40,847 nt of DNA from a virus, in UHGV virus genome UHGV-0390358; one strand, written 5' to 3'. The notes beneath the pieces are model-generated. The model did not search any database, was not told the origin of the DNA, and saw only the letters and a list, made by a program, of their open reading frames with translations. A program made the translations under genes and the position numbers. Shown one piece after another: positions 4,111 to 33,212 of the stretch. Numbering within the stretch: position 1 is the stretch's first letter; the number at the start of each line of letters is the position of its first letter.

Positions 4111-7100
4111 ATGACGGTCTCAACCGAAGTTGACCACAACGAATACACCGGTAACGGCGTTACGACATCGTTTCCGTATACTTTTCGAATTTTCAGAAAA
4201 TCAGACCTGGTTGTTCAGGTGTCTGACCTGAACGGGAACGTAACAGAATTGGTTCTGGATACCGGTTATACGGTAACTGGGGCGGGCACTTATAGTGGCG
4301 GTTCTGTGGTTCTTCCGTCTCCGCTTGCTACTGGATGGCGAATTACGATAGATCGTGTGCTTGATGTAGTGCAGGAGACAGACCTTCGCAATCAGGGAAA
4401 ATTTTTCCCCGAAGTGCATGAAGATGCCTTTGACTACCTGACGATGCTGATCCAGCAATGTTTTGGGTGGTTCAGACGTGCATTGATGAAACCATCTTTG
4501 CTTGCAAAATATTACGATGCAAAGCAAAACAAAATTTCTAACCTTGCAGATCCATCATTTGAGCAGGACGCTGTAAATAATCGCTCAATGCGTAATTATG
4601 TCGATGCTGCAATCGCCGGGGTTGTTGGTGGTTTTGGTTGGTTTATTCAGTATGGTTCTGGGGCTGTGTACCGAACGTTCCAGGATAAAATGCGTGATGC
4701 TATTAGCCCCAAAGATTTTGGAGCTGTTGGTGATGGTATAAATGACGATTCCACTGCAATAAGCGCGTGCCTTGAAGCCTCATCTCCAGTTTATAAAATT
4801 GACGGATTAGGGCTTACTTTTAAAGTATCAACTCTTCCGGATGTCAGTCGATTTAAAAATGCTCGTTTTTTATTTGAGAGAATACCGGGTCAGCCTCTTT
4901 TTTATGCTTCTGAAGATTTTATCCAGGGAGAGTTATTTAAAATTACAGATACACCGTGGTACAACGCCTGGACGCAGGATAAAACGTTTGTATATGACAA
5001 TGTCATCTATGCGCCTTTTATGGCTGGAGACCGCCATGGTGTAAATAACCTCCATGTTGCATGGGTTCGCTCAGGAGATGACGGGAAGACCTGGACAACG
5101 CCGGAATGGCTTACAGATTTACATGAAAACTATCCCACAGTTAACTATCACTGCATGTGTATGGGGGTTGTCAGAAATCGCCTTTTTGCTGTAATTGAGA
5201 CGCGGACCGTGAGCGGAAATAAACTGCAGGTTGCAGAGTTGTGGGATCGCCCAATGAGTCGCAGCCTTCGCGTTTATGGTGGTATAACGAAAGCAGCAAA
5301 TCAGCAAGTCGCTTATATTCGCATTACTGATCACGGATTATTTGCTGGTGATTTTGTCAACTTCTCAAACTCTGGTGTTACAGGTGTTACCGGGAATATG
5401 ACGGTGACTACTGTTATTGATAAAAATACTTTTACAGTTACGACGCAAAATACCCAGGATGTGGATCAGAATAACGAGGGTAGATACTGGAGTTTTGGTA
5501 CATCATTTCACTCTTCACCATGGAGAAAAACCAGTCTTGGAACTATTCCTTCTTTTGTTGACGGAAGCACTCCTGTTACTGAGATTCACAGTTTTGCGAC
5601 GATTAGCGATAACAGTTTTGCTGTTGGCTACCATAATGGTGATATTGGTCCACGCGAGCTTGGGATACTCTATTTCTCTGATGCTTTCGGTTCTCCTGGT
5701 AGCTTTGTTCGCAGACGCATACCTGCAGAATATGAGGCGAATGCATCTGAGCCATGTGTAAAATATTATGATGGCATTCTGTATCTGACGACCAGGGGGA
5801 CATTAAGTACTCAACCCGGTAGTTCATTGCACAGAAGCTCTGATTTAGGTACATCATGGAATTCTCTTCGCTTCCCAAATAATGTTCATCACTCAAACCT
5901 TCCTTTTGCCAAAGTTGGCGATGAGCTGATTATTTTTGGCAGTGAGCGCGCATTTGGTGAGTGGGAAGGAGGAGAGCCTGATAACCGTTATGCAGGAAAT
6001 TATCCAAGAACATTTATGACCAGAGTTAACGTCAATGAGTGGAGTCTGGATAATGTAGAGTGGGTTAATGTTACTGATCAGATTTATCAGGGCGGAATAG
6101 TTAACTCTGCGGTTGGTGTTGGTTCAGTTTGTATCAAAGACAACTGGCTGTACTACATTTTCGGTGGGGAAGACTTTCTAAACCCATGGAGCATAGGGGA
6201 TAACAACAGAAAATATCCTTATGTTCACGATGGTCACCCGGCTGATTTGTATTGTTTCAGGGTGAAAATTAAACAGGAAGAATTTGTTTCAAGGGATTTT
6301 GTCTACGGAGCCACTCCTAACAGAACGCTTCCTACTTTTATGTCGACGTCAGGCGTGAGGACGGTTCCTGTACCCGTTGATTTCACAGATGATGTTGCCG
6401 TCCAGTCACTGACTGTCCATGCAGGTACATCAGGACAAGTTCGCGCGGAAGTCAAACTTGAGGGTAATTACGCCATTATTGCGAAGAAAGTACCGTCTGA
6501 TGATGTTACCGCTCAGAGATTAATCGTTAGCGGCGGTGAAACAACGTCTTCAGCAGATGGTGCAATGATAACGTTGCATGGTTCCGGAAGCAGTACTCCA
6601 CGTCGCGCGGTATATAACGCACTCGAACATCTTTTTGAGAACGGAGATGTTAAACCTTATCTTGATAATGTAAATGCTCTTGGTGGTCCGGGAAACAGGT
6701 TCTCGACAGTTTATCTTGGCTCCAATCCTGTGGTTACCAGTGACGGAACATTAAAGACAGAGCCGGTCTCTCCTGACGAAGCATTGCTGGATGCCTGGGG
6801 TGACGTCAGGTATATCGCTTATAAATGGCTGAACGCTGTCGCTATAAAGGGGGAAGAAGGGGCGAGGATACATCATGGTGTAATCGCGCAGCAACTTCGT
6901 GATGTTCTTATTTCTCACGGACTCATGGAAGAAGAAAGCACAACATGCCGCTATGCCTTTCTTTGCTATGACGATTATCCCGCAGTATATGATGACGTCA
7001 TTACTGGCCAAAGGGAAATGCCGCTGACTGATAATGACGGGAGCATCATTGTTGATGAGGATGATAATCCAGTGATGGTAATGGAAGACATCATTGAGCG

Positions 7101-7230
7101 CGTTGAAATAACGCCAGCAGGATCTAGATGGGGGGTCAGACCTGATCTCTTATTCTATATCGAGGCAGCATGGCAGCGCAGAGAAATGGATAAGATAAAA
7201 GAGCGGATTCAGTCTCTGGAAGAACGTTAA
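4111..7230 (+). CDS. Tailspike endosialidase (endo-N-acetylneuraminidase) with C-terminal intramolecular chaperone domain
   Basis: 1039 aa; conserved podovirus tailspike N-terminal head-binding region; sialidase Asp-boxes SGDDGKTW and SSDLGTSW; C-terminal HGVIAQQLRDV... autoproteolytic chaperone-type domain. Confidence 0.85.
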   Translation: MTVSTEVDHNEYTGNGVTTSFPYTFRIFRKSDLVVQVSDLNGNVTELVLDTGYTVTGAGTYSGGSVVLPSPLATGWRITIDRVLDVVQETDLRNQGKFFPEVHEDAFDYLTMLIQQCFGWFRRALMKPSLLAKYYDAKQNKISNLADPSFEQDAVNNRSMRNYVDAAIAGVVGGFGWFIQYGSGAVYRTFQDKMRDAISPKDFGAVGDGINDDSTAISACLEASSPVYKIDGLGLTFKVSTLPDVSRFKNARFLFERIPGQPLFYASEDFIQGELFKITDTPWYNAWTQDKTFVYDNVIYAPFMAGDRHGVNNLHVAWVRSGDDGKTWTTPEWLTDLHENYPTVNYHCMCMGVVRNRLFAVIETRTVSGNKLQVAELWDRPMSRSLRVYGGITKAANQQVAYIRITDHGLFAGDFVNFSNSGVTGVTGNMTVTTVIDKNTFTVTTQNTQDVDQNNEGRYWSFGTSFHSSPWRKTSLGTIPSFVDGSTPVTEIHSFATISDNSFAVGYHNGDIGPRELGILYFSDAFGSPGSFVRRRIPAEYEANASEPCVKYYDGILYLTTRGTLSTQPGSSLHRSSDLGTSWNSLRFPNNVHHSNLPFAKVGDELIIFGSERAFGEWEGGEPDNRYAGNYPRTFMTRVNVNEWSLDNVEWVNVTDQIYQGGIVNSAVGVGSVCIKDNWLYYIFGGEDFLNPWSIGDNNRKYPYVHDGHPADLYCFRVKIKQEEFVSRDFVYGATPNRTLPTFMSTSGVRTVPVPVDFTDDVAVQSLTVHAGTSGQVRAEVKLEGNYAIIAKKVPSDDVTAQRLIVSGGETTSSADGAMITLHGSGSSTPRRAVYNALEHLFENGDVKPYLDNVNALGGPGNRFSTVYLGSNPVVTSDGTLKTEPVSPDEALLDAWGDVRYIAYKWLNAVAIKGEEGARIHHGVIAQQLRDVLISHGLMEEESTTCRYAFLCYDDYPAVYDDVITGQREMPLTDNDGSIIVDEDDNPVMVMEDIIERVEITPAGSRWGVRPDLLFYIEAAWQRREMDKIKERIQSLEER

Positions 7231-9643: not shown

Positions 9644-10894
9644 GTGCTTACCGATACAAAATTAAAAAACCTCAAGCCGCAGGACAAACTGTACAAGGTC
9701 TCCGATCGTGACGGGCTGTATGTAGCTGTGCTTACGTCAGGCACGGTCTCGTTTCGCTATGACTACCGTATCAACGGTCGCCGCGAAACACTGGTAATCG
9801 GGCAGTATGGGCGTGACGGTATCAGCCTGGCAGAAGCGCGAGAAGAACTGATTGCTGCAAAGAAGCTGCTTAAAGCAGGCCAGTCACCGGCTGCGGCTAA
9901 ACGTGACGGTATCAAAAAGATTCGTGGTGCCGAGACGTTTGCGGTACATACCGACAGTTATATGAAACACGTCATCCTGGCTGACAGTACCCGCGCAATG
10001 AAACAGGCGGTGATCGACCGTGACATACTTCCGGTTCTTGGCAATAAAATGATGGCTGAAATTACCACATCGATGGTTCGTGATTTGTGTGACCGGATTG
10101 TCGAACGCGGTGGCCGGGCAACAGCAGTACAGGCCAGGGAGATCATCAGCAGCGTATACCGTCACGCCAATGACCGTGGTCATGGTTTGTTTAATCCTGC
10201 GGCTGACATTAAACCTTCGTCTATCGCCATATTTAAACCACGAGAGCGAACACTGACACCAGAAGAAATTGGCCTGTTCTTCCGCACGCTGGATGCCATT
10301 GGTGCTATGGGCACTATGAAAATGGCTTTAAAGCTGGTGCTTATCACTATGGTTCGTAAAGGCGAATTCACCAATGCAACGTGGGATGAAATAGATTTTA
10401 AAAAATGGACATGGACAATTCCTTCAGACCGCATGAAGGGAAGCCGGGCGCACGTTATTTACCTGCCTAAACAGGCACAGGATATATTGGTTGGGTTGCA
10501 GATGTGCGCTGGTGGAAGTGAATATCTGGTTCCTGGTCGTTACAATTTCCGGAAGCCATTATCTAATGCCGCGCTGAACTCTCTGATCGACAGAACGGTG
10601 AAAATAATAAATGAAGATGGTGAGCATATTCAGGACTTCACCGTACACGATATGCGCCGTACAGCCAGTACGTTGTTGCATGAGGCTGGTTATCCTTCAG
10701 ACTGGATTGAAAAGGCTCTGGCACATGAGCAGAAAGGTGTGCGCGCCGTATATAACAAAGCGGAATACGCCAGACAGCGCGCCTACATGTTGCAGCAGTG
10801 GGCCGATATGATTGATTCCTGGATTAACGGGGAGCATACGGATCTGATTCCGTTCTCCCCGTCGAAGTTTGAGAAGTGGATGGCGGGGGAATAA
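9644..10894 (+). CDS. int: Tyrosine site-specific integrase
   Basis: GTG start at 9644; N-terminal LTDTKLKNLKP...YRINGRRETLVIG arm-binding-type domain; C-terminal catalytic region HDMRRTASTLL...AVYNKAEY. Confidence 0.85.
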   Translation: MLTDTKLKNLKPQDKLYKVSDRDGLYVAVLTSGTVSFRYDYRINGRRETLVIGQYGRDGISLAEAREELIAAKKLLKAGQSPAAAKRDGIKKIRGAETFAVHTDSYMKHVILADSTRAMKQAVIDRDILPVLGNKMMAEITTSMVRDLCDRIVERGGRATAVQAREIISSVYRHANDRGHGLFNPAADIKPSSIAIFKPRERTLTPEEIGLFFRTLDAIGAMGTMKMALKLVLITMVRKGEFTNATWDEIDFKKWTWTIPSDRMKGSRAHVIYLPKQAQDILVGLQMCAGGSEYLVPGRYNFRKPLSNAALNSLIDRTVKIINEDGEHIQDFTVHDMRRTASTLLHEAGYPSDWIEKALAHEQKGVRAVYNKAEYARQRAYMLQQWADMIDSWINGEHTDLIPFSPSKFEKWMAGE

Positions 10895-10897
10895 CGT

Positions 10898-11092
10898 TTA
10901 ATTATTCTGCTGATTTTCTTCCATCTCGGCTTCTGCTGCCAGTGATTCAATTTTGTTTTCGAATATTGCTGACAGTGTTGCAAATTCAGCATCAGTGACA
11001 GCGGGAATTGGAACAAACCTGATCCCGCTGTGTGCAAGCATGTTTGCAGTTTCAAGGCATTTTCTTAAATCTGCTGGTGATGCCCTGTTCAT
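10898..11092 (-). CDS. Small acidic protein (64 aa), translationally coupled to the methyltransferase gene; alternatively a frameshifted methyltransferase C-terminus
   Basis: ATG at 11092 overlaps methyltransferase stop (ATGA); protein-like sequence ...IRFVPIPAVTDAEFATLSAIFENKIESLAAEAEMEENQQNN. Confidence 0.3.
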   Translation of the reverse strand: MNRASPADLRKCLETANMLAHSGIRFVPIPAVTDAEFATLSAIFENKIESLAAEAEMEENQQNN

Positions 11093-11739
11093 GCAGCACG
11101 CTCCCGCCCCTGGTTGTCTGTTGGTGACAGCGGAGCATTGCTGAATGCATTTGTTAATCCGCCAATATCCAACGCGTATCCAGGGTGTAGTTGCACTGCC
11201 GGGTCTTCGCACTGATTACCCCAAACATCGAAGCCATGAGACGTCTGGCGGGCGAACAGTTCAATGCGAGAAACATCGCCTAATAATTGCACAAGTTTTT
11301 CACGAACGATATCTGGCTTTCTTGAATGCTCAAGCCGCGGTGCGGTAAATGACTGAACGATCCCTGCATTAATGCGCGTAGGTAGTTTTCCCTTTACCGC
11401 AAACAGGCAATCTTCACTATTGGCGCGAGTCATGTGTCCCATACCCATAACCAGTTTATCTGGTTGTCGACTACCACATTTTATCCACGTGAAGCCCTTC
11501 ATGGTCATCAGACGGAATCCCCAGGCTTCAACAACTTTTAGCGCTTCGAGTGGTTGTGTTGGCACCCACCACATGGCCAACAGACAGTTTTCATCGGCCA
11601 AATCCCACACAGGAAGGCGGCAGATATCCATCACACTCATAACCGGATATTTAAAACTGGCACCGCGATTACCATCTGCGGCTTTGTCCCGGTATACCCA
11701 GGGTGGATCTGCATAGATTAGTGTGTATTTCTTAGTCAT
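11089..11739 (-). CDS. DNA N6-adenine methyltransferase, MT-A70 family (orphan methylase)
   Basis: Motif IYADPPW near N-terminus; ribosome-binding site GGGGTGG. Confidence 0.8.
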   Translation of the reverse strand: MTKKYTLIYADPPWVYRDKAADGNRGASFKYPVMSVMDICRLPVWDLADENCLLAMWWVPTQPLEALKVVEAWGFRLMTMKGFTWIKCGSRQPDKLVMGMGHMTRANSEDCLFAVKGKLPTRINAGIVQSFTAPRLEHSRKPDIVREKLVQLLGDVSRIELFARQTSHGFDVWGNQCEDPAVQLHPGYALDIGGLTNAFSNAPLSPTDNQGRERAA

Positions 11740-12031
11740 AAACCACCCCGCAACATCCTATACCGCTATAGTCTCCACGGCGAAGGCCGTTACCTTTTGT
11801 GATACATTGGTCCCTGCGAACCGCGATCCTTGCACGCTCAACATCACCAGAAGCAACATCCATACACTGAAGCCAAAGGTGAGCGGCAATGCGGAACTGC
11901 CCTTTTTTCTCTCTTTCAATCGCGCGTTTTTCGATCTCTATCGCCGCAGGAGTAACGGCGACAATCTTTGACGGACTGCGCATTGAAACCTTATTCATGT
12001 GATATTTTTCAAGTCGGCTTAACTTTCTCAC
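11732..12031 (-). CDS. Hypothetical protein
   Basis: ORF between AlpA-like and methyltransferase genes; GTG start with AGAGGG upstream; no recognisable motif. Confidence 0.3.
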   Translation of the reverse strand: MRKLSRLEKYHMNKVSMRSPSKIVAVTPAAIEIEKRAIEREKKGQFRIAAHLWLQCMDVASGDVERARIAVRRDQCITKGNGLRRGDYSGIGCCGVVYD

Positions 12032-12438: not shown

Positions 12439-13461
12439 TTACTCGAATTCTGGACGCATATCGTTAAGCGTCATCATGAATTTTTGGTGATATTCATCAC
12501 CGAGCTTTTCAGCCATGGTGTTAATCTCATTTTCAGCGCTCTTGAACATCGTTTTTGCATCTTCAGCAGATGGATCCAGGCTATTAAGTATCGCGATGAT
12601 ATATTCTCGAGCTTCTTCTCGTTCTGAATCTGAAATTGGCGACAGGTGTTGACGCTCATCGTCAACTACGGAATATTCACCAGTGATAACAGCTGCGTTA
12701 TCTTGGCTAAGTCCAGCTTCAGCGCGCTCATCCATAACAACAGCCTTCTGCATTTCAATAGAAACAGGAAGATATTTGAATAGTCGGCGAATTACTGTTT
12801 TTTTAGCCATCTCATCGAAGTGATCAACCCATGGGCCACTGCTACCGGCTTTGCTCAGTGCACGAACTTTCTCAATGTCTGCCCGGCTCATAACTTCAAA
12901 TTGGACTCCGCCATCTTTCAGTCGTGCAACGGCGTAAACGTGCGTTAATTCTCCGCGGTCACCTGTTTCGCAAGGTAAATGCTCGAGCGTTTCTTCCAGG
13001 CCGTATGAGTAGCTGAATTTGTCGTTTGTATGTACGGTACGAGCCGAGATACTCAGGATCTGCCCAGAGCGGCGGGCAAGGTCAATCATTCCGCGATAGC
13101 CGATAATCAGCTGTGCTTCTGTAGATACGGTTTCCCATCTTCCATTTACTTTCTGGCGTTTGTCGAACGGTATCAGGTAAGCGTGTCCAAGAGCTCCGCC
13201 TGGTTCAAGACCCAATTGGGCACATTGCATAATTGCCCCCAGGAAGCTGGCTTGGTCGCATGATGCAAGTTTTGGAACCTTTCGGATCTCTGTGGTTGCT
13301 ATGCGCGCCAGACGGTCTGCTGTCATGTGCTTTGGAAGTGCCAAAGCCATCTGAGCTTTAATTTTTGGGTCTGCCAGAAGTCCGGCCAGAGTTGTTGGTT
13401 TCTCATTATGATGTGCAACTTGGTTACCGGCAGCCGCTGCCTTAAGTGCATTGATAGACAT
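12439..13461 (-). CDS. recT: RecT-family single-strand annealing recombinase
   Basis: Strong similarity by eye to Rac RecT (ADRLARIATTEIRKVP...GYRGMIDLARRSGQI...HVYAVARLKDGG.QFEVM...KTVIRRLFKYLPVSIE); AAGGAG ribosome-binding site. Confidence 0.85.
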   Translation of the reverse strand: MSINALKAAAAGNQVAHHNEKPTTLAGLLADPKIKAQMALALPKHMTADRLARIATTEIRKVPKLASCDQASFLGAIMQCAQLGLEPGGALGHAYLIPFDKRQKVNGRWETVSTEAQLIIGYRGMIDLARRSGQILSISARTVHTNDKFSYSYGLEETLEHLPCETGDRGELTHVYAVARLKDGGVQFEVMSRADIEKVRALSKAGSSGPWVDHFDEMAKKTVIRRLFKYLPVSIEMQKAVVMDERAEAGLSQDNAAVITGEYSVVDDERQHLSPISDSEREEAREYIIAILNSLDPSAEDAKTMFKSAENEINTMAEKLGDEYHQKFMMTLNDMRPEFE

Positions 13462-13470
13462 TTTTTCTCC

Positions 13471-14370
13471 TTACTTCATTCTGAAGACGCGTTGTGTCGT
13501 TGTTGTTTTGAATTTTTCGAATAACTCAGGGTGTACTGACTGGAATAGCTTCTGGTCGAATCTGTTGCTGATCTGAGATTTCCATGTGCAGAGCGGCTTT
13601 CCGTCCAGGGTCAGGACTGAGTGCTCTTGCATGTACATCTTCAGCTTCTCTTCTGATATAGCTATTTCTTCTTCCAGTGATTTTCTGCGTGACTTCATGT
13701 CTCGTAGATCGTTGAATAGTGCGAGTGCCTTTCCGTCAGCCTCGATACTTGTCCCGGCATCTTTCTCAAACATCAGCGATACATCGCTTACGCTGGTAGC
13801 TTCCGGCGGGTTAAGATTTTTCACTCGGTCCCAGAAAGCGATTTCTTTTTCTAAGATCGCCTGGATAGTTTCTTCATCACGCTCAACCCGATAGATTCGG
13901 AAGTCGTCGCCACCGATAAGCACACCGAAAACGCATACCTGTTTGTTTGTAACCATCAACCCGTGCATGGCCTGGGCCGTGTAATGCACAGGAATTGCAT
14001 CTGTCTGGATTTCTCCCCATTCTTTGGCTTTGAACGGACTAACTGTTTTGATCTCAATGTTCTCGCCTGACGCTGCTTCTGCATCGATCTCAGCTGCAAT
14101 AAAATCGTAATCACGGTGGATATAGCGGTTTCCGCGATGAACGATTTCCATCCCTGTTTCCTCAGAAAGCAGGTCTATTACGTATGGCTCCATACGCTGG
14201 CCACGCGTGAAAACTTTCTGCTTGCTTGGGTCTACTGGTTTGACACGTGGCTGGACCTTATCCAGATAAACCTCAAGCGGGGTGCGCCATGGGCTAATTC
14301 CAAGAATCCCTGCAACATCGCTTCCTCCGATGTATTTTGTTCTATCCATGATTCCAGCGTTCTGCATCAT
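13471..14370 (-). CDS. YqaJ-like recombination exonuclease (partner of RecT)
   Basis: N-terminal KYIGGSDVAGILG and IEIKT motifs; ATGA overlap with upstream gene stop. Confidence 0.7.
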   Translation of the reverse strand: MMQNAGIMDRTKYIGGSDVAGILGISPWRTPLEVYLDKVQPRVKPVDPSKQKVFTRGQRMEPYVIDLLSEETGMEIVHRGNRYIHRDYDFIAAEIDAEAASGENIEIKTVSPFKAKEWGEIQTDAIPVHYTAQAMHGLMVTNKQVCVFGVLIGGDDFRIYRVERDEETIQAILEKEIAFWDRVKNLNPPEATSVSDVSLMFEKDAGTSIEADGKALALFNDLRDMKSRRKSLEEEIAISEEKLKMYMQEHSVLTLDGKPLCTWKSQISNRFDQKLFQSVHPELFEKFKTTTTQRVFRMK

Positions 14371-14840: not shown

Positions 14841-14917
14841 TTACCGTTAAGGTAATAATTATGCTTATTTGGTTTGGTGTCAATAGATATGAGTTAAAAA
14901 AATTACCCGTAAGGTAA
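14841..14917. promoter_or_regulatory. Leftward early promoter region with two TTACC-N5-GGTAA operator palindromes
   Basis: TTACCgttaaGGTAA at 14841-14855 and TTACCcgtaaGGTAA at 14903-14917, between repressor terminator and first leftward gene. Confidence 0.55.
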
Positions 14918-23458: not shown

Positions 23459-24283
23459 TTACTTTTGTGTTTTTGATTTTCTTTGATAGGTGGAATTTAA
23501 ATCACCATTTATATTTACTAGAGGATTATTCAATAATGTACTGATTTCTGGATTGTTAATTCCAGTAACGCCAAGTTTCTTTACGGACTCATTAAAGTCT
23601 TGTAATGATTTTAGACCTACAAGCCCATTAGCAATTGTATTATTTGTTGCCAAAGGAATGTTTTTCTTATAGGACTCATATTCGTTTTTTAAATTTTTGT
23701 GAGTTTTTTCTAGATTTTCTAGTTTAGATGTTGTTTCATCAATAACCTTAGATAATTCTAAAATACGAGCTTGTGCTGCGCGCAGTTCTGTCTCCCTCTC
23801 TTTCAATTCAGATGTGAGTTGTCCCATTCTGTCTTTTGAAAGAATTATTTCCTCTTTCATGTCTTGAATGTTTTTTTCAGCGCCTGTTTTTACTTTTTCG
23901 TAAGTAATGTCTTTTTTAGCCAGCAATCTCTGTAGCCGTGTTTCACGTTGTATTTTTCTTGCCTTCCGGTGGTTTTCGATTGAGTCATTATTATCAAGAG
24001 GTTTTGCTTGCCATACGTTAATGATATTGTTTACCCATGGTAATAGGCAGCAGATAGTAATTACAGATAAGCATGGATAAAACATAACAGTTTTCCATGT
24101 GCTGTTATCTGAGATGTATGAAATTTTATCTATTATATTTGATTTGCTAAAAAACAGATAAAGAAGTGATTTCCAGTTGAAGGCGCACCAGGACATAACA
24201 AAAGCACCAAGCACAGGGTTTTTAGCTCGATGCACGGCAGTATTGGCAGTAGATAAAAACAGCTCTTTGAACGATTCGAACAT
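23459..24283 (-). CDS. AT-rich accessory protein: N-terminal membrane segments + long coiled-coil; unknown function
   Basis: Opposite strand to flanking late genes; AT-rich composition unlike neighbours; consensus TATAAT -10 at 24309-24314 overlapping an operator palindrome; in-frame alternative starts at 24307 and 24337. Confidence 0.5.
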   Translation of the reverse strand: MFESFKELFLSTANTAVHRAKNPVLGAFVMSWCAFNWKSLLYLFFSKSNIIDKISYISDNSTWKTVMFYPCLSVITICCLLPWVNNIINVWQAKPLDNNDSIENHRKARKIQRETRLQRLLAKKDITYEKVKTGAEKNIQDMKEEIILSKDRMGQLTSELKERETELRAAQARILELSKVIDETTSKLENLEKTHKNLKNEYESYKKNIPLATNNTIANGLVGLKSLQDFNESVKKLGVTGINNPEISTLLNNPLVNINGDLNSTYQRKSKTQK

Positions 24284-24342
24284 ACTAATTACCTTAAAGT
24301 TTTTCATGATTATACCTTTAAGGTAATTTGTGGTCATCAGGC

Positions 24343-24530: not shown

Positions 24531-24607
24531 TGGCGTGGCATGCAGGATTCGAACCTGCGACCAACCGCTTAGAAGGCGGTTGCTCTGTCCAACTGAGCTA
24601 ATGCCAC
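24531..24607 (-). tRNA. tRNA-Arg (anticodon UCU)
   Basis: Reverse complement folds as a 77-nt cloverleaf: 7-bp acceptor stem GTGGCAT/ATGCCAC, D-arm GCTC..GAGC, anticodon loop CTTCTAA, T-arm GCAGG-TTCGAAT-CCTGC, 3' CCA; differs from E. coli argU in the acceptor stem. Confidence 0.9.
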
Positions 24608-29426: not shown

Positions 29427-29762
29427 ATGTCAGGTGAGAAACCAAGATACCGCGTTCTGCGCCTCTCTCATATCCATAACACTCTGTGGCCGGAGGGGGC
29501 AGAAATCGAATACGAAGGTGAGCCTGGTAGCGCACTGGAACCTGTTAACGATGCAGCCAGACAGGCAAAAGCAAAAGTTGCAGGAAAGGTGTCAATGGCA
29601 GCAACCAGCACCAAAATCATCAACGACGTGTCAGATGATGGTGAACTGGATAAGCTCCGTGAAGAGTACGAATTGCTCTTTAACGAGAAGCCACACCATA
29701 ACGCCAAAGCCGAAACGCTCCGCGAGAAGATCGCAGATAAGCGTAAAGAACTGGGCGTGTAA
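29427..29762 (+). CDS. Hypothetical structural-module protein
   Basis: ATG at 29427 after AAGG; 111 aa. Confidence 0.4.
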   Translation: MSGEKPRYRVLRLSHIHNTLWPEGAEIEYEGEPGSALEPVNDAARQAKAKVAGKVSMAATSTKIINDVSDDGELDKLREEYELLFNEKPHHNAKAETLREKIADKRKELGV

Positions 29763-29779
29763 GCCTCGCGGATCAGACA

Positions 29780-29800
29780 AGGGGCTTCGGCCCCTTTATT
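29780..29800 (+). terminator. Rho-independent terminator within structural module
   Basis: AGGGGC-ttcg-GCCCCT followed by TTATT. Confidence 0.5.
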
Positions 29801-29812
29801 GCAGGAGTGTAT

Positions 29813-30136
29813 ATGGAACTCGTAAACCTCAAAACCGGCACTGACAGCTACCAGGATGAGAGCGGAGAAACCAGAACTCGCGATGAATACCCGTGGGGGC
29901 TGTGCATCACTCTTAATAACGACACATTGAATAAGCTGAAGGCGCAACCTCAGGGCGTCGGAACAGAAGTGATGATAACTGCAAAGGCTGTTATTCGAGG
30001 CCTGTCTGCCAGAGAAACTGACGATGGTGTTAATCGCAGCGCCGATCTGCAGATCACTGATATGGCGATCGCTCCTGTTTCCGGGGATGTAGAAAAATCA
30101 GCGGCTGAAACTCTGTACGGTAACGGAGGTGAGTGA
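29813..30136 (+). CDS. Hypothetical structural-module protein
   Basis: AGGAG ribosome-binding site 5 nt upstream of ATG 29813. Confidence 0.4.
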   Translation: MELVNLKTGTDSYQDESGETRTRDEYPWGLCITLNNDTLNKLKAQPQGVGTEVMITAKAVIRGLSARETDDGVNRSADLQITDMAIAPVSGDVEKSAAETLYGNGGE

Positions 30137-30741
30137 TGGCCTCTGTAGTAGAGATCTGTAATCGTGCGCTGTCCAATATTGGCAACAGCCGCAGCATTAA
30201 CAGCCTGACGGAAGCCAGCAAGGAAGCGGGGGAATGTTCGCTGCACTTTGAGGCCTGCCGTGATGCTGTGCTTTCTGATTTTGACTGGAACTTTGCTACC
30301 AAACGCGTGGCGCTTGCAGATACGAGCAATCCACCGCCTGACTGGGAATATGCGTACCAGTACCCGTCAGATTGTCTGCGCATTACTGAAATTATGCTTC
30401 CTGGTGTACGCAATCCAACAGCAGCAATGCGCGTTCAGTACGAAGTTGGTGCAGACACCAACGGAACAGGAAAGTTGATCTACACAGACCAGCCTCAGGC
30501 ATGGCTCAAGTATGTCTCTCGCGTTACAGATGTGAACATGTTTGATGCCATTTTTATGGAGGCGCTGGCCTGGCGTCTTGCGGCAGCTATTAACATGGCG
30601 CTGACTGGGAATGCAGACCTCGGTACGTTTGCCCTCAATATGTACAATCGCGTGATTCTTAGTGCTGGCTCGCATAGCCAGAATGAATCACAGGAACCAC
30701 AGCCACCGGTTGATGAGTTTACCATTGCGAGGTTGTCCTGA
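30136..30741 (+). CDS. Head-tail adaptor / tail tubular protein A (T7 gp11-like)
   Basis: About 201 aa; N-terminal ...VEICNRALSNIG... resembles gp11-type adaptor N-termini; immediately upstream of the gp12-like gene. Confidence 0.5.
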   Translation: MASVVEICNRALSNIGNSRSINSLTEASKEAGECSLHFEACRDAVLSDFDWNFATKRVALADTSNPPPDWEYAYQYPSDCLRITEIMLPGVRNPTAAMRVQYEVGADTNGTGKLIYTDQPQAWLKYVSRVTDVNMFDAIFMEALAWRLAAAINMALTGNADLGTFALNMYNRVILSAGSHSQNESQEPQPPVDEFTIARLS

Positions 30742-33212
30742 TGGCTATCAGTTGGATCCAGCCCAGCTTTGCTGGTGGTGAGATTGGACCGTCGTTGTAC
30801 GGACGTATCGACATGGCGAAGTACCAGGTGGCATTGCGCAAGTGCGATAATTTTATCGTGCGGCAGTATGGCGGCGTTGAGAATCGACCTGGTACGCGTT
30901 TTGTCGGTGCCGCCAAATACCCAAATCGGAAATGCCGTCTGATCCCGTTCCAGTTCTCGACGGTTCAGACTTATGCTCTGGAGTTCGGACACCAGTACAT
31001 GCGCGTTATCAAAGATGGTGCGTTGGTGCTGAACAGCAGCAATGTTATTTATGAAATTGCCACGCCATATACTGAAGCCGATCTGTTCCGAATTAAATTC
31101 ACGCAAAGTGCCGACGTGCTTACGCTGGTTCACCCGGCATACCCGCCGAAAGAGTTGCGCCGATATGCTCATGACAACTGGCAACTGGTTGATGTGGTAA
31201 CGAAGAACGGGCCATTTGAAGATATCAATATTGACGAGTCAGTGACGGTTTATGCCAGCGCCAGCACCGGGACAATTACGTTAACGGCAAGCGCCTCTAT
31301 TTTTGGCGCGGAGCAGGTAGGCAAATTGTTCTATCTGGAACAGCCTGCAGTGGATTCAGTGCCGGTATGGGAAACCAGTAAGAGTACGTCGATTGGCGAT
31401 ATTCGCCGTGCAGACAGTAACTACTATCGCGCCGTTACAGCAGGCAAAACAGGCACTTTGCGCCCTTCGCATACAGAAGGCACATCATGGGATGGCTGGG
31501 GCGGATCCGGTGATGATGATACCGGCATTGAGTGGGAGTATCTGCACAGTGGTTTTGGCATTGCCCGTATCTCTGCTGCAAATGGAACTACTGCAACTGC
31601 CGAGGTGATTTCCTATATCCCTTCGCAGGTAGTTGGCGAGGATAATGCCAGCTATAAATGGGCTAAATATGCCTGGAACAGTATTAACGGTTATCCTGGC
31701 ACTGTTGTTTATTATCAACAACGTCTTTACTTCGCCGCATCGACTGCGTTCCCTCAGACTATCTGGGCCAGCCGTACTGGGGATTATAAGGATTTTGGCA
31801 AAAGCAATCCTACGCAGGATGACGACAGAATTATCTACACCTATGCCGGGCGTCAGGTTAATGAGATCCGCCACCTGATTGATGTCGGTTCGCTGGTGGC
31901 GCTGACTTCCGGAGGTGAGTACGTCATCACCGGCGACCAGAACAAAGTGTTAACCCCATCATCATTTGCATTCAGCTCTCAGGGATCAAATGGCTCGAGC
32001 AATGTCCCACCAATTGCCGTGGCGAATATTGCTCTGTTCGTCCAGGAGAAAGGCAGTGTTGTCCGTGATCTGGCCTACTCATTCGATGTTGACGGCTATC
32101 AGGGGAACGACCTGACCATCCTTGCCAATCATCTTTTTCAGAAGCACAGCATTGTTGACTGGTGCTTCTCGATAGTCCCTTACTCCAGCGCCTTCTGCAT
32201 TCGTGATGACGGTAAATTACTGGTGATGACCTATTTGCGTGATCAGCAGGTTTTTGCATGGGCACCACAATCCAGTACTGGAAAATATGAAAGCACATGC
32301 AGTATCAGCGAAGGCAATGAAGATGCGGTGTATTTCGTCGTTAACCGAACCGTTAACGGGCAAACAGTGAGATACATCGAGCGACTGTCCAGCCGTTTAT
32401 TTACCAGCGATGAAGATGCTTTCTTTGTTGATTCTGGCCTTAGCTATGATGGAAGAAATACGTCTGACAGAACGATGATCATCACTGGTGGTTCTGGCGA
32501 ATGGGATTACCGCGCGGAATATACAATCAGTGTTTCTGGTGGTGCGTACTTCACCAGTAGTGATGTCGGCGCGCAACTACAGTTCCCTTATACCGGAACT
32601 GATCCTGATACTGGCGATGAGGTGTCAAAAGAATTACGTTGCGACATTATTTCTGTAACCAGCAATACCGCTGTAGTGGTTCGTGCTAACAGGAACGTCC
32701 CGCCATCCCTCAGGAATGTGGCCACCACGAACTGGCAGATGGCGCGCCGGACATTTGGAGGCCTGTCTCATCTTGAAGGCCAGACCGTAAACATTCTCTC
32801 TGATGCGAACGTGGAACCACAGAAAGTGGTTTCCGGAGGTGCCGTCACGCTGGAATCTCCGGGGGCTGTAGTGCACATCGGCCTGCCAATAACTGCTGAA
32901 TTCGAAACACTGGATATCAACATTAACGGACAGGAAACGCTACTGGACAAAAAACAGGTGATCCCCTCCGTTACTCTGGTTGTGAATGCCAGTCGCGGCA
33001 TCTGGGCGACTACGCCCGGCGGTAAATGGTACGAATATCCACAGCGTGAATTCGAGTTCTACGATGATCCTGTTGATGATGCTACCGGAAAAGTAGAAGT
33101 GAAACTGGACAGTAACTGGGGCAAAAACGGACGTGCAAAAATCCGTCAGCTTGATCCGTTGCCGCTGTCTGTTCTTGCCGTTATTCCTCGCCTTACTGTT
33201 GGGGGGTTCTGA
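30741..33212 (+). CDS. Tail tubular protein B / nozzle (T7 gp12-like)
   Basis: 823 aa; N-terminus MAISWIQPSFAGGEIGP resembles T7 gp12 start; position. Confidence 0.6.
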   Translation: MAISWIQPSFAGGEIGPSLYGRIDMAKYQVALRKCDNFIVRQYGGVENRPGTRFVGAAKYPNRKCRLIPFQFSTVQTYALEFGHQYMRVIKDGALVLNSSNVIYEIATPYTEADLFRIKFTQSADVLTLVHPAYPPKELRRYAHDNWQLVDVVTKNGPFEDINIDESVTVYASASTGTITLTASASIFGAEQVGKLFYLEQPAVDSVPVWETSKSTSIGDIRRADSNYYRAVTAGKTGTLRPSHTEGTSWDGWGGSGDDDTGIEWEYLHSGFGIARISAANGTTATAEVISYIPSQVVGEDNASYKWAKYAWNSINGYPGTVVYYQQRLYFAASTAFPQTIWASRTGDYKDFGKSNPTQDDDRIIYTYAGRQVNEIRHLIDVGSLVALTSGGEYVITGDQNKVLTPSSFAFSSQGSNGSSNVPPIAVANIALFVQEKGSVVRDLAYSFDVDGYQGNDLTILANHLFQKHSIVDWCFSIVPYSSAFCIRDDGKLLVMTYLRDQQVFAWAPQSSTGKYESTCSISEGNEDAVYFVVNRTVNGQTVRYIERLSSRLFTSDEDAFFVDSGLSYDGRNTSDRTMIITGGSGEWDYRAEYTISVSGGAYFTSSDVGAQLQFPYTGTDPDTGDEVSKELRCDIISVTSNTAVVVRANRNVPPSLRNVATTNWQMARRTFGGLSHLEGQTVNILSDANVEPQKVVSGGAVTLESPGAVVHIGLPITAEFETLDININGQETLLDKKQVIPSVTLVVNASRGIWATTPGGKWYEYPQREFEFYDDPVDDATGKVEVKLDSNWGKNGRAKIRQLDPLPLSVLAVIPRLTVGGF

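What the first reader, a model, noticed from the sequence alone, without database searches (positions are those of the whole stretch)
10898..11739. Orphan MT-A70 methyltransferase coupled to a small acidic ORF, or a frameshifted C-terminus
The methylase has no cognate restriction gene in the window, consistent with an anti-restriction role. Its stop overlaps (ATGA) the start of a 64-aa acidic protein in another frame that looks more protein-like than the methylase's own last 40 residues, so this is either a coupled partner or a frameshift.
Basis: partly seen in the sequence, partly recalled or inferred. Interest (0 to 1): 0.35.

Follow-up and report, generated by a model that had tools for sequence, protein, structure and literature searches.

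The report
Phage methylase and Orf63 gene, not frameshifted
These are two ordinary, separately annotated genes of a phiV10-like temperate E. coli phage, an MT-A70 adenine methyltransferase and a homologue of lambda Orf63, which merely abut at a 4-base overlap; there is no frameshift and no sign of a dedicated partnership.

Summary
On the minus strand, a 216-aa MT-A70 methyltransferase (11089-11739) ends in an ATGA that starts a 64-aa acidic ORF (10898-11092).

- Near-identical phages carry the same 216-aa methylase ending at the same ATGA, followed by three unrelated genes: Orf63-like, a NinI-like phosphatase, or an 82-aa protein.
- Enterobacter phage Tyrion keeps the same C-terminal tail in front of a fourth unrelated gene.
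- Substitution patterns show the tail is translated in the methylase frame.

The small ORF belongs to DUF1382 and is a homologue of lambda Orf63 (PDB 8DSB), a dimeric pro-lytic protein of the exo-xis region. It occurs without any methylase in lambda, and in one near-identical E. coli prophage.

"Coupling" is therefore at most translational, as it is at most junctions of this operon. The ATGA is a mosaic cassette boundary.

The methylase is an orphan, but an anti-restriction role is untested. Its 83%-identical Stx-phage relative (M.EcoGV / M.EcoPA8orf6770P) has been reported both as a GATC DNA methylase and, with an upstream partner PNB-2, as a 16S rRNA methylase. PNB-2 is absent here.

Both genes are already annotated this way in phiV10 and in RefSeq. 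Low interest.

The parts
11089..11739 (-). MT-A70 family N6-adenine methyltransferase gene, 216 aa, DPPW motif at residues 11-14. Equivalent to phiV10 p33.
   Evidence: Pfam PF05063 E=1.1e-22. PADLOC MTase_II E=6e-78. 97% identical to phiV10 YP_512288. AlphaFold model with mean pLDDT 83. Foldseek best matches are METTL3 and Tetrahymena MTA1. RefSeq annotates it as WP_000163470.1.
11092..11211 (-). Last 40 codons of the methylase (residues 177-216): a conserved beta-hairpin, a short helix, then a disordered end ...SNAPLSPTDNQGRERAA. This variable tail is genuinely coding in the methylase frame.
   Evidence: Polymorphisms among 60 unique alleles: synonymous/non-synonymous 15/14 in the methylase frame, 6/23 in the small ORF's frame, 5/24 in the third frame. 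Window against Tyrion: 22 identical codons, 11 synonymous, 7 non-synonymous. The same tail is present in relatives of 60-80% identity, P0007 and P0064. pLDDT profile. No slippery heptamer.
10898..11092 (-). DUF1382 / lambda Orf63 homologue, 64 aa, acidic. Last cistron of the early-left operon. Equivalent to phiV10 p32.
   Evidence: Pfam PF07131 E=1.8e-30, covering 1-60/60 and starting at this Met. PDB 8DSB (lambda Orf63) E=8e-13 over residues 2-62, with the RFVPIP strand conserved. RefSeq annotates it as WP_001077942.1.
11089..11092 (-). ATGA stop/start overlap. A probable translational-coupling junction and a mosaic cassette boundary.
   Evidence: Sequence read directly. Similarity between relatives breaks at this point in E. 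coli genomes, at query positions 188-192, and in phage PAS61. Three alternative downstream genes sit at the same junction.
11101..11105 (-). GGGAG Shine-Dalgarno-like motif, 8 nt upstream of the small ORF's ATG, embedded in the methylase codons for G-R-E.
   Evidence: Junction sequence AACCAGGGGCGGGAGCGTGCTGCATGA. A purine-rich SD-like tetramer lies in the last ~20 nt of the methylase gene in 28/37 diverse homologous loci. Consensus match only; function is inferred.
11732..12031 (-). PerC-family small protein gene immediately upstream, overlapping the methylase start by 8 nt. RefSeq starts it at 11983.
   Evidence: Pfam PF06069 E=6e-07. RefSeq annotation. No similarity to PNB-2.
9644..10894 (+). 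Tyrosine integrase, convergent with the operon. Its stop lies 3 nt from the stop of the Orf63-like gene.
   Evidence: ORF list. Annotations.
14855..14883 (-). Promoter-like site (TTGACA-17-AATTAT), the likely start of the early-left operon that ends with the methylase and the Orf63-like gene.
   Evidence: Consensus scan only. No terminator-like site on the minus strand between here and 10898.

Best explanation
Two independent cistrons close the early-left (pL-like) operon of a phiV10-like (Uetakevirus) temperate E. coli phage.

The first is a 216-aa MT-A70 (beta-class) N6-adenine methyltransferase. Its catalytic core runs to about residue 190. It ends in a lineage-specific, partly disordered tail that is really translated in that frame.

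The second is a 64-aa homologue of lambda Orf63 (DUF1382). In lambda and Stx phages Orf63 is a small dimeric protein that favours lytic development.

The ATGA overlap, with a GGGAG motif inside the methylase's last codons, most likely lets ribosomes that terminate on the methylase re-initiate on the Orf63-like gene. This is inferred. The same junction is a recombination boundary at which alternative accessory genes are swapped.

The methylase is an orphan. By homology to M.EcoGV / M.EcoPA8orf6770P it methylates adenine, most likely in GATC in DNA when acting alone. Its physiological target (phage DNA, or host rRNA) has not been shown for this lineage.
For: Shown:
- Family assignments for both genes.
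- Separate annotation in phiV10 and in RefSeq.
- Among 80 viral loci with a methylase 97-100% identical, the same tail and the same ATGA are followed by Orf63-like in 54, a NinI-like phosphatase in 20 and an 82-aa protein in 6.
- 539 of 5426 complete E. coli genomes carry the region. 371 have both genes. In nearly all of the other genomes sampled in the listing, similarity breaks at the ATGA.
- Strain CE0021a has an identical Orf63-like gene with no methylase.
- Lambda has orf63 and no methylase.
- 0 of 40 diverse genomes with a methylase homologue have DUF1382 within 2 kb.
- The tail is under purifying selection in the methylase frame only.
- No MT-A70+DUF1382 fusion appears among the 120 best methylase hits or the 28 DUF1382 hits. 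The Orf63 structure paper also states that Orf63 is never a domain of a larger protein (PMC10869804).
- 30 of 37 diverse homologues have an NTGA overlap at the methylase stop.

From the literature:
- Orf63 is dimeric and pro-lytic (PMC10869804).
- M.EcoGV is listed with GATC specificity (PMC6602927).
- The Stx homologue, together with PNB-2, prefers 16S rRNA (PMC10810198).
Against: - Translational coupling is inferred from geometry only.
- The methylase's target is not established. The purified Stx homologue had almost no DNA activity in vitro (PMC10810198).
- The methylase and a DUF1382 gene are also adjacent in Stx phages such as P13374, so some functional link cannot be formally excluded.
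- The tail is more variable than the core (variable sites 21% against 13%), so its function, if any, is weakly constrained.
Confidence: 0.88

Rival explanations
1. Frameshift or pseudogene. The true product would be a methylase fused to the downstream ORF, or a shorter methylase whose tail is out-of-frame junk created by a sequencing error or mutation.
For: The small ORF's frame stays open for about 40 codons upstream of its ATG, giving the 104-aa ORF 10898-11212. The last 16 residues of the methylase are predicted disordered. Rare database entries with few members are frameshifted here, namely P0086 and P0113.
Against: - The identical 216-aa reading frame and stop are kept in hundreds of genomes and in front of four unrelated downstream genes.
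- Tyrion conserves the tail through 11 synonymous codon changes.
- Synonymous/non-synonymous ratios favour the methylase frame: 15/14 against 6/23.
- The Pfam DUF1382 model and lambda Orf63 both begin at the annotated Met.
- There is no slippery site and no fusion protein.
Confidence: 0.01
2. Functional two-subunit enzyme. The Orf63-like dimer would be a specificity or regulatory partner of the methylase, analogous to METTL3-METTL14 or to the Stx-phage methylase-PNB-2 holoenzyme, and the overlap would ensure matched expression.
For: - MT-A70 enzymes commonly need partners (PMC10810198).
- The pair is adjacent in two phage lineages, phiV10-like and Stx/Oslovirus.
- Orf63 has a hydrophobic cleft that binds amphipathic helices (PMC10869804).
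- The methylase tail contains a short predicted helix at residues 192-200.
Against: - The same methylase allele and tail occur with a NinI-like phosphatase or an 82-aa protein in place of the Orf63-like gene.
- The Orf63-like gene occurs without the methylase in a near-identical prophage, in lambda and in 933W-type phages.
- None of 40 diverse methylase loci has DUF1382 nearby.
- In Stx phages the demonstrated partner is the upstream wHTH protein PNB-2.
Confidence: 0.04
3. The methylase is not an anti-restriction DNA methylase. It would be a regulator of prophage induction acting on host 16S rRNA, as reported for its Stx-phage homologue.
For: 83% identity over residues 1-187 to the P13374 / phiPA8-type enzyme. 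That enzyme raises spontaneous induction and, with PNB-2, prefers 16S rRNA in 30S subunits (PMC10810198). The closest folds include the RNA methylase METTL3.
Against: - There is no PNB-2 homologue anywhere in the window.
- The C-terminal 27-30 residues, which the authors propose bind PNB-2, are different here.
- M.EcoGV is recorded as a GATC DNA methylase (PMC6602927).
- In related prophages the upstream neighbours are DNA-modification or nuclease-type proteins: DndB/DGQHR and PD-(D/E)XK.
Confidence: 0.2

Closest known systems
Escherichia phage phiV10 genes PhiV10p33 (DNA methyltransferase) and PhiV10p32 (DUF1382 family protein), NC_007804
   Same: Same gene order, lengths (216 and 64 aa), 4-nt overlap and convergent integrase. 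DNA is 98% identical. The proteins differ at 6 of 216 and 2 of 64 residues.
   Different: Only a few substitutions. Elsewhere the window phage has a different recombinase module and a different tailspike.
Stx-phage MT-A70 methyltransferase M.EcoPA8orf6770P / M.EcoGV (for example phage P13374 'methylase')
   Same: 83% identical over residues 1-187, with the same DPPW motif. It also lies near the int end of the early-left operon, and there it is also followed by a DUF1382 gene.
   Different: The C-terminal tail is unrelated (208 aa...VKFLEKTNERKNDVDKGITS). The junction with DUF1382 is a 23-nt overlap. The upstream wHTH partner PNB-2, needed for 16S rRNA preference (PMC10810198), is absent here, where the upstream gene is PerC-like.
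Bacteriophage lambda Orf63 (exo-xis region; NMR structure PDB 8DSB)
   Same: Same Pfam family (DUF1382) and same size, with the RFVPIP beta-strand and acidic C-terminal helix conserved. E=8e-13. It is an early-left operon gene close to the int end.
   Different: Only moderately similar in sequence (tblastn 53% over residues 1-49). In lambda it sits between orf60a (DUF1317) and orf61, with no methylase. Its function in a phiV10-like podovirus is untested.
Eukaryotic MT-A70 enzymes: METTL3-METTL14 (RNA m6A) and Tetrahymena MTA1c (DNA 6mA)
   Same: Same catalytic fold and DPPW motif. Foldseek E about 1e-13, TM about 0.65. HMMER hits to 7f4r and 5il0.
   Different: About 20% identity. Those enzymes are obligate heteromers with extra domains. 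This is a minimal 216-aa single-domain phage protein.

Membership tests
MT-A70 (PF05063) beta-class N6-adenine methyltransferases | Full-length match to the family profile above the curated threshold | tested here: met
   81.2 bits against a cut-off of 23.9, model positions 1-172/172.
MT-A70 (PF05063) beta-class N6-adenine methyltransferases | Catalytic DPPW motif and MT-A70 Rossmann-like fold | tested here: met
   DPPW at residues 11-14, conserved among 74 homologues (P12 and W14 invariant; D11 and P13 in at least 90%). AlphaFold pTM 0.81. Foldseek top hits are METTL3 and MTA1.
MT-A70 (PF05063) beta-class N6-adenine methyltransferases | SAM-dependent N6-adenine methylation activity and its target sequence | not testable with these tools
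   Only literature on the 83%-identical Stx homologue is available (PMC10810198, PMC6602927).
DUF1382 / lambda Orf63 family (PF07131) | Full-length profile match, stand-alone protein of about 60-65 aa, conserved central beta-strand (RFVPIP) | tested here: met
   105 bits against a cut-off of 27, model positions 1-60/60. PDB 8DSB E=8e-13. RFVPIP is present. Homologues are 47-102 aa and carry this domain only.
DUF1382 / lambda Orf63 family (PF07131) | Intertwined homodimer; pro-lytic phenotype | not tested
   Known for lambda Orf63 only (PMC10869804).
Stx-phage 16S rRNA methyltransferase holoenzyme (M.EcoPA8orf6770P + PNB-2) | Catalytic subunit of the same clade | tested here: met
   155/187 identical to the P13374 methylase. 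P13374 carries the gp7-gp6 terminator sequence quoted in the paper, and its DPPW-flanking peptide matches the one encoded by the paper's mutagenic primer (primer, translated by hand; P13374 protein).
Stx-phage 16S rRNA methyltransferase holoenzyme (M.EcoPA8orf6770P + PNB-2) | Adjacent upstream gene for the wHTH subunit PNB-2 | tested here: not met
   The upstream gene is PerC-like, with no BLASTP alignment to PNB-2. No tblastn hit for PNB-2 anywhere in the window.
Stx-phage 16S rRNA methyltransferase holoenzyme (M.EcoPA8orf6770P + PNB-2) | STEC-type C-terminal ~27 residues, proposed to be needed for PNB-2 binding | tested here: not met
   The tails are unrelated after residue ~187.
Type II restriction-modification system | Cognate restriction endonuclease gene next to the methylase | tested here: not met
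   The neighbours are PerC-like, Orf63-like and the integrase. No endonuclease is recognisable in the whole phage genome. It is therefore an orphan methylase.
Programmed ribosomal frameshift / fused gene | In-phase slippery site plus a conserved trans-frame product | tested here: not met
   No X XXY YYZ heptamer or homopolymer in the tail. The alternative frame shows no purifying selection, 6 synonymous against 23 non-synonymous. No fusion proteins in the databases.

The most novel reading that the evidence does not exclude
The variable C-terminal tail of this methylase clade could be a docking peptide that recruits a lineage-specific specificity subunit. In phiV10-type phages, which lack PNB-2, the Orf63-like dimer would bind the short amphipathic helix at residues 192-200. 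Orf63 has a hydrophobic cleft known to bind helical peptides. This would link the unexplained pro-lytic phenotype of Orf63 proteins to adenine methylation of DNA or rRNA.
Probability: 0.04. Interest if true: 0.6.

Novelty: already known. Interest (0 to 1): 0.1.

Why it matters
The finding matters little in itself. It confirms the current annotation of a common prophage module, present in about 10% of complete E. coli genomes, and removes a suspected frameshift.

Two things are worth keeping.
- This methylase clade has conflicting published activities: GATC in DNA, or 16S rRNA with PNB-2. The phiV10-type variant is a natural version with no PNB-2 and a different tail, so it could help resolve what the catalytic subunit does alone.
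- The ATGA junction is a clean example of a phage mosaic boundary. At least three accessory cassettes are exchanged there without disturbing either reading frame.

Tried and rejected
- Searched for the published partner PNB-2 in the window and in 40 diverse loci. None found.
- Tested the upstream PerC-like gene against PNB-2. No similarity.
- Looked for slippery heptamers and homopolymers that could support a programmed or accidental frameshift. None in the tail.
- Looked for MT-A70+DUF1382 fusion proteins among the 120 best-scoring of 2155 methylase homologues and among the 28 DUF1382 homologues found. None. A few sparsely populated frameshifted entries look like errors or pseudogenes.
- Considered the 104-aa extended ORF (10898-11212) as the real small gene. 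Rejected for three reasons: the Pfam model and lambda Orf63 start at the internal Met, the extension shows no coding constraint, and a GGGAG motif sits 8 nt before the ATG.
- PADLOC and Pfam scans of the unannotated or unusual ORFs of the phage for a restriction enzyme. Nothing beyond coiled-coil noise.
- Tried to read Fang et al. 2012 (M.EcoGV) directly. It is not held, so the GATC specificity is cited second-hand from PMC6602927 and PMC10810198.
- A literature search for direct work on the phiV10 or epsilon15 methylase found nothing specific.

Full report
**What is there.** The finding's coordinates match two minus-strand ORFs exactly.
- ORF 11089-11739 encodes 216 aa with a DPPW motif. It matches Pfam MT-A70 (PF05063) at E=1.1e-22, covering the whole model with residues 5-176.
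- ORF 10898-11092 encodes 64 aa with pI 4.56.
- Bases 11089-11092 read ATGA on the minus strand, so the methylase's TGA overlaps the small ORF's ATG.
- A GGGAG motif lies 8 nt upstream of that ATG, inside the methylase codons for G-R-E.

**Context.**
- The segment is 98% identical to Escherichia phage phiV10 (Uetakevirus). In phiV10 the two genes are annotated separately, as PhiV10p33 'DNA methyltransferase' (216 aa) and PhiV10p32 'DUF1382 family protein' (64 aa), with the same 4-nt overlap.
- The window is a whole, circularly permuted phiV10-like phage genome. From 9437 to 40847 it is 99.98% identical to a prophage next to guaA in E. coli NZ_CP031215.1. There RefSeq also annotates two separate genes.
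- The two genes are the last cistrons of a minus-strand early-left operon. The order is: promoter-like site at 14855-14883, hypothetical gene, YqaJ exonuclease, RecT, AlpA-like gene, 38-aa membrane protein, PerC-like gene, methylase, Orf63-like gene.
- The operon converges on the integrase gene, with 3 nt between the two stops.
- Four-base or 8-base overlaps are the rule in this operon, so the ATGA says nothing specific about this pair.

**The small ORF is a known protein.**
- It matches Pfam DUF1382 over the full model, starting at its own Met (E=1.8e-30).
- It matches PDB 8DSB, the NMR structure of lambda Orf63, at E=8e-13, with the invariant RFVPIP strand present.
- In lambda-type genomes the DUF1382 gene is orf63 of the exo-xis region.
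- Orf63 is an intertwined dimer. It promotes lytic development in lambda and Stx phages. [quoted passage not shown]

**Frameshift test.** That is what is found.
- Phage PAS61 has the same 216-aa methylase ending in the same ATGA, followed by a NinI-like Ser/Thr phosphatase.
- Among 80 IMG/VR loci whose methylase is 97-100% identical, the gene after the same junction is Orf63-like in 54, the phosphatase in 20 and an unrelated 82-aa protein in 6.
- Of 5426 complete E. coli genomes, 539 carry the region and 371 carry both genes. In nearly all of the other genomes sampled in the listing, similarity stops at query positions 188-192, which is the ATGA.
- Enterobacter phage Tyrion has a methylase only 80% identical. 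It keeps the same tail (...AFSNAPLSPTDNQGRERAA) and is followed by a different 68-aa gene.
- In the last 40 codons, window against Tyrion shows 22 identical codons, 11 synonymous and 7 non-synonymous.
- Among 60 unique alleles, substitutions in the tail are 15 synonymous to 14 non-synonymous in the methylase frame. They are 6:23 in the small ORF's frame and 5:24 in the third frame.
- There is no slippery heptamer or homopolymer run in the tail.
- There is no MT-A70+DUF1382 fusion among the listed homologues of either protein.

The tail is therefore real coding sequence, and the frameshift idea is refuted.

**Why the tail looks odd.**
- Across 74 homologues the conserved core continues through '...FDVWGNQC..PAVQL.PG' to about residue 190. 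After that the sequences diverge into short lineage-specific tails.
- The AlphaFold model has mean pLDDT 83. It is confident up to about residue 191, shows a short helix at 192-200 (pLDDT about 69), and is disordered from 201 to 216.
- Tails in this family often end in 'AA' followed by an NTGA overlap with the next gene. In 37 diverse genomes, 16 end in AA, 30 have the overlap, and 28 have an SD-like tetramer within the last ~20 nt of the methylase gene. The end of the protein is thus partly shaped by the need to encode the next gene's ribosome-binding site.
- In a Kluyvera genome (L092) a 197-aa methylase is followed by a separate 54-aa ORF that ends ...RNAPLAPTDNQGKKK.... This suggests that the phiV10-type tail arose by fusion with part of a downstream small gene. 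I did not pursue this further.

**Partner or neighbour?** The two genes assort independently.
- The methylase occurs without the Orf63-like gene, as shown above.
- The Orf63-like gene occurs without the methylase in a near-identical guaA prophage, strain CE0021a, with the identical protein WP_001077942.1. It also occurs without it in lambda and 933W-type phages.
- None of 40 diverse genomes with a methylase homologue has DUF1382 within 2 kb.
- The pair is also adjacent in Stx/Oslovirus phages such as P13374. There the methylase is 83% identical but the DUF1382 protein only about 53% (tblastn, residues 1-51), and the junction is a different, 23-nt overlap.
- In Salmonella and Enterobacter relatives the methylase is instead flanked by a DUF1317 protein, the Orf60a family.

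This int-proximal end of the operon behaves like lambda's exo-xis region, a zone of interchangeable small accessory genes. Translational coupling through the ATGA is plausible but inferred. A functional partnership is not supported.

**What the methylase does.**
- It is an orphan. No restriction endonuclease is recognisable in the window or in phiV10.
- The closest studied relative is the Stx-phage enzyme M.EcoPA8orf6770P / M.EcoGV.
- I identified the P13374 'methylase' as that type in two ways. The terminator sequence quoted in the paper is present in P13374, and the peptide encoded by the paper's mutagenic primer matches the P13374 protein (primer, translated by hand; protein).
- M.EcoGV is recorded as a GATC methylase (PMC6602927).
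- Gong et al. found that the purified enzyme alone was almost inactive. In a 1:1 complex with PNB-2, the wHTH protein encoded immediately upstream, it preferred 16S rRNA in 30S subunits and raised spontaneous prophage induction. They proposed that the last ~27 residues are needed for PNB-2 binding (PMC10810198).
- The window has no PNB-2 homologue and an unrelated tail, so it fails two defining features of that holoenzyme.
- In related prophages the upstream neighbours are DndB/DGQHR-type or PD-(D/E)XK-type proteins. That leans weakly towards a DNA substrate.

My best estimate is a DNA N6-adenine (probably GATC) methylase made early in lytic growth. Its biological role, whether protection of phage DNA or modulation of induction, is open. 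The anti-restriction reading is plausible but untested.

**Verdict.** The frameshift is refuted. 'Coupled partner' holds only in the trivial translational sense. Both genes are known families already annotated in this way, so the finding is ordinary and of low interest.

Noticed in passing
window 11089-11092; loci L009-L088: The ATGA is a mosaic boundary. The same methylase allele is followed at the identical junction by three alternative cassettes: Orf63-like in 54 loci, a NinI-like phosphatase in 20 and an 82-aa protein beginning MKQIMVAH in 6. The first bases after ATGAA differ. In E. coli 2015C-4944 the 82-aa gene is followed by an antirepressor gene, ant.
   Followed up: partly
L092 2591-2755 (Kluyvera sp.) compared with window 11092-11160: A separate 54-aa ORF downstream of a 197-aa methylase ends in ...RNAPLAPTDNQGKKK. 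This resembles the window methylase's tail SNAPLSPTDNQGRERAA. The long tail may have arisen by fusion with a downstream small gene.
   Followed up: partly
L089-L128 (diverse Enterobacterales and others): The methylase C-terminus is a family-wide coupling junction. 30/37 loci have an ATGA, GTGA or TTGA stop/start overlap, 16/37 proteins end in 'AA', and 28/37 have an SD-like tetramer within the last ~20 nt of the methylase gene. The downstream genes are highly diverse and include RusA-like and LexA-like proteins, judged by eye.
   Followed up: partly
window 10894-10898: The early-left operon and the integrase gene converge with only 3 nt between their stops. No terminator-like site was detected on the minus strand, so early-left transcripts should run antisense into int. 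A possible regulatory consequence was not examined.
   Followed up: no
window 4111-7230 (+): The tailspike is a 1039-aa endosialidase, with End_beta_propel at E=6e-233 plus the other endosialidase domains and the S74 chaperone domain. This replaces phiV10's O157-specific tail fibre. This phiV10-like temperate phage is probably specific for K1 (polysialic acid) capsule.
   Followed up: no
window 23459-24337 (-) and 24531-24607 (-): An insert relative to phiV10 lies between the terminase and portal genes. It carries a 292-aa protein with an N-terminal hydrophobic segment and a coiled-coil region (only weak SMC-like and LmuB-like hits) and a tRNA-Arg(TCT) gene.
   Followed up: partly
window 12439-14370 (-) compared with phiV10 29722-31482: The recombination module differs from phiV10. 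The window has separate YqaJ-like exonuclease and RecT genes with no DNA similarity to phiV10 across 12442-14367, where phiV10 annotates one 'RecE-RecT fusion' gene.
   Followed up: no
L134 1998-2525 (Enterobacter hormaechei); L005 937-2004 (Salmonella phage SPC32N); E. coli M21816 (H175): In some relatives the gene immediately upstream of the methylase is a PD-(D/E)XK-family protein (weak PDDEXK_5 hit) or a DndB/DGQHR protein (DndB E=2e-47). These are possible DNA-modification or nuclease partners of this methylase clade.
   Followed up: no
L003 1784-2011 and 2645-2851 (phage Tyrion): In Tyrion the methylase with the same long tail has a 75-aa winged-HTH protein (HTH_24, E=3e-06) directly upstream, in the position PNB-2 occupies in Stx phages. 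The unrelated 68-aa protein downstream also looks like a winged-HTH protein by eye.
   Followed up: partly
L132 2325-2504; L134 1843-2001: Salmonella and Enterobacter guaA prophages carry a DUF1317 gene (lambda Orf60a family) in the same operon segment: immediately upstream of the methylase in Salmonella, and one gene further upstream in Enterobacter. Lambda exo-xis-type small genes are therefore scattered around this methylase in several lineages.
   Followed up: no
L129 19005-20664 and 30130-30734 (near-identical E. coli prophage; same coordinates in the window to within a few bases): RefSeq flags several pseudogene fragments (ead/Ea22-like, DUF551, DUF550) and a frameshifted structural gene in the 99.98%-identical prophage. 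The element may be partly decayed. I did not check this in the window sequence itself.
   Followed up: no
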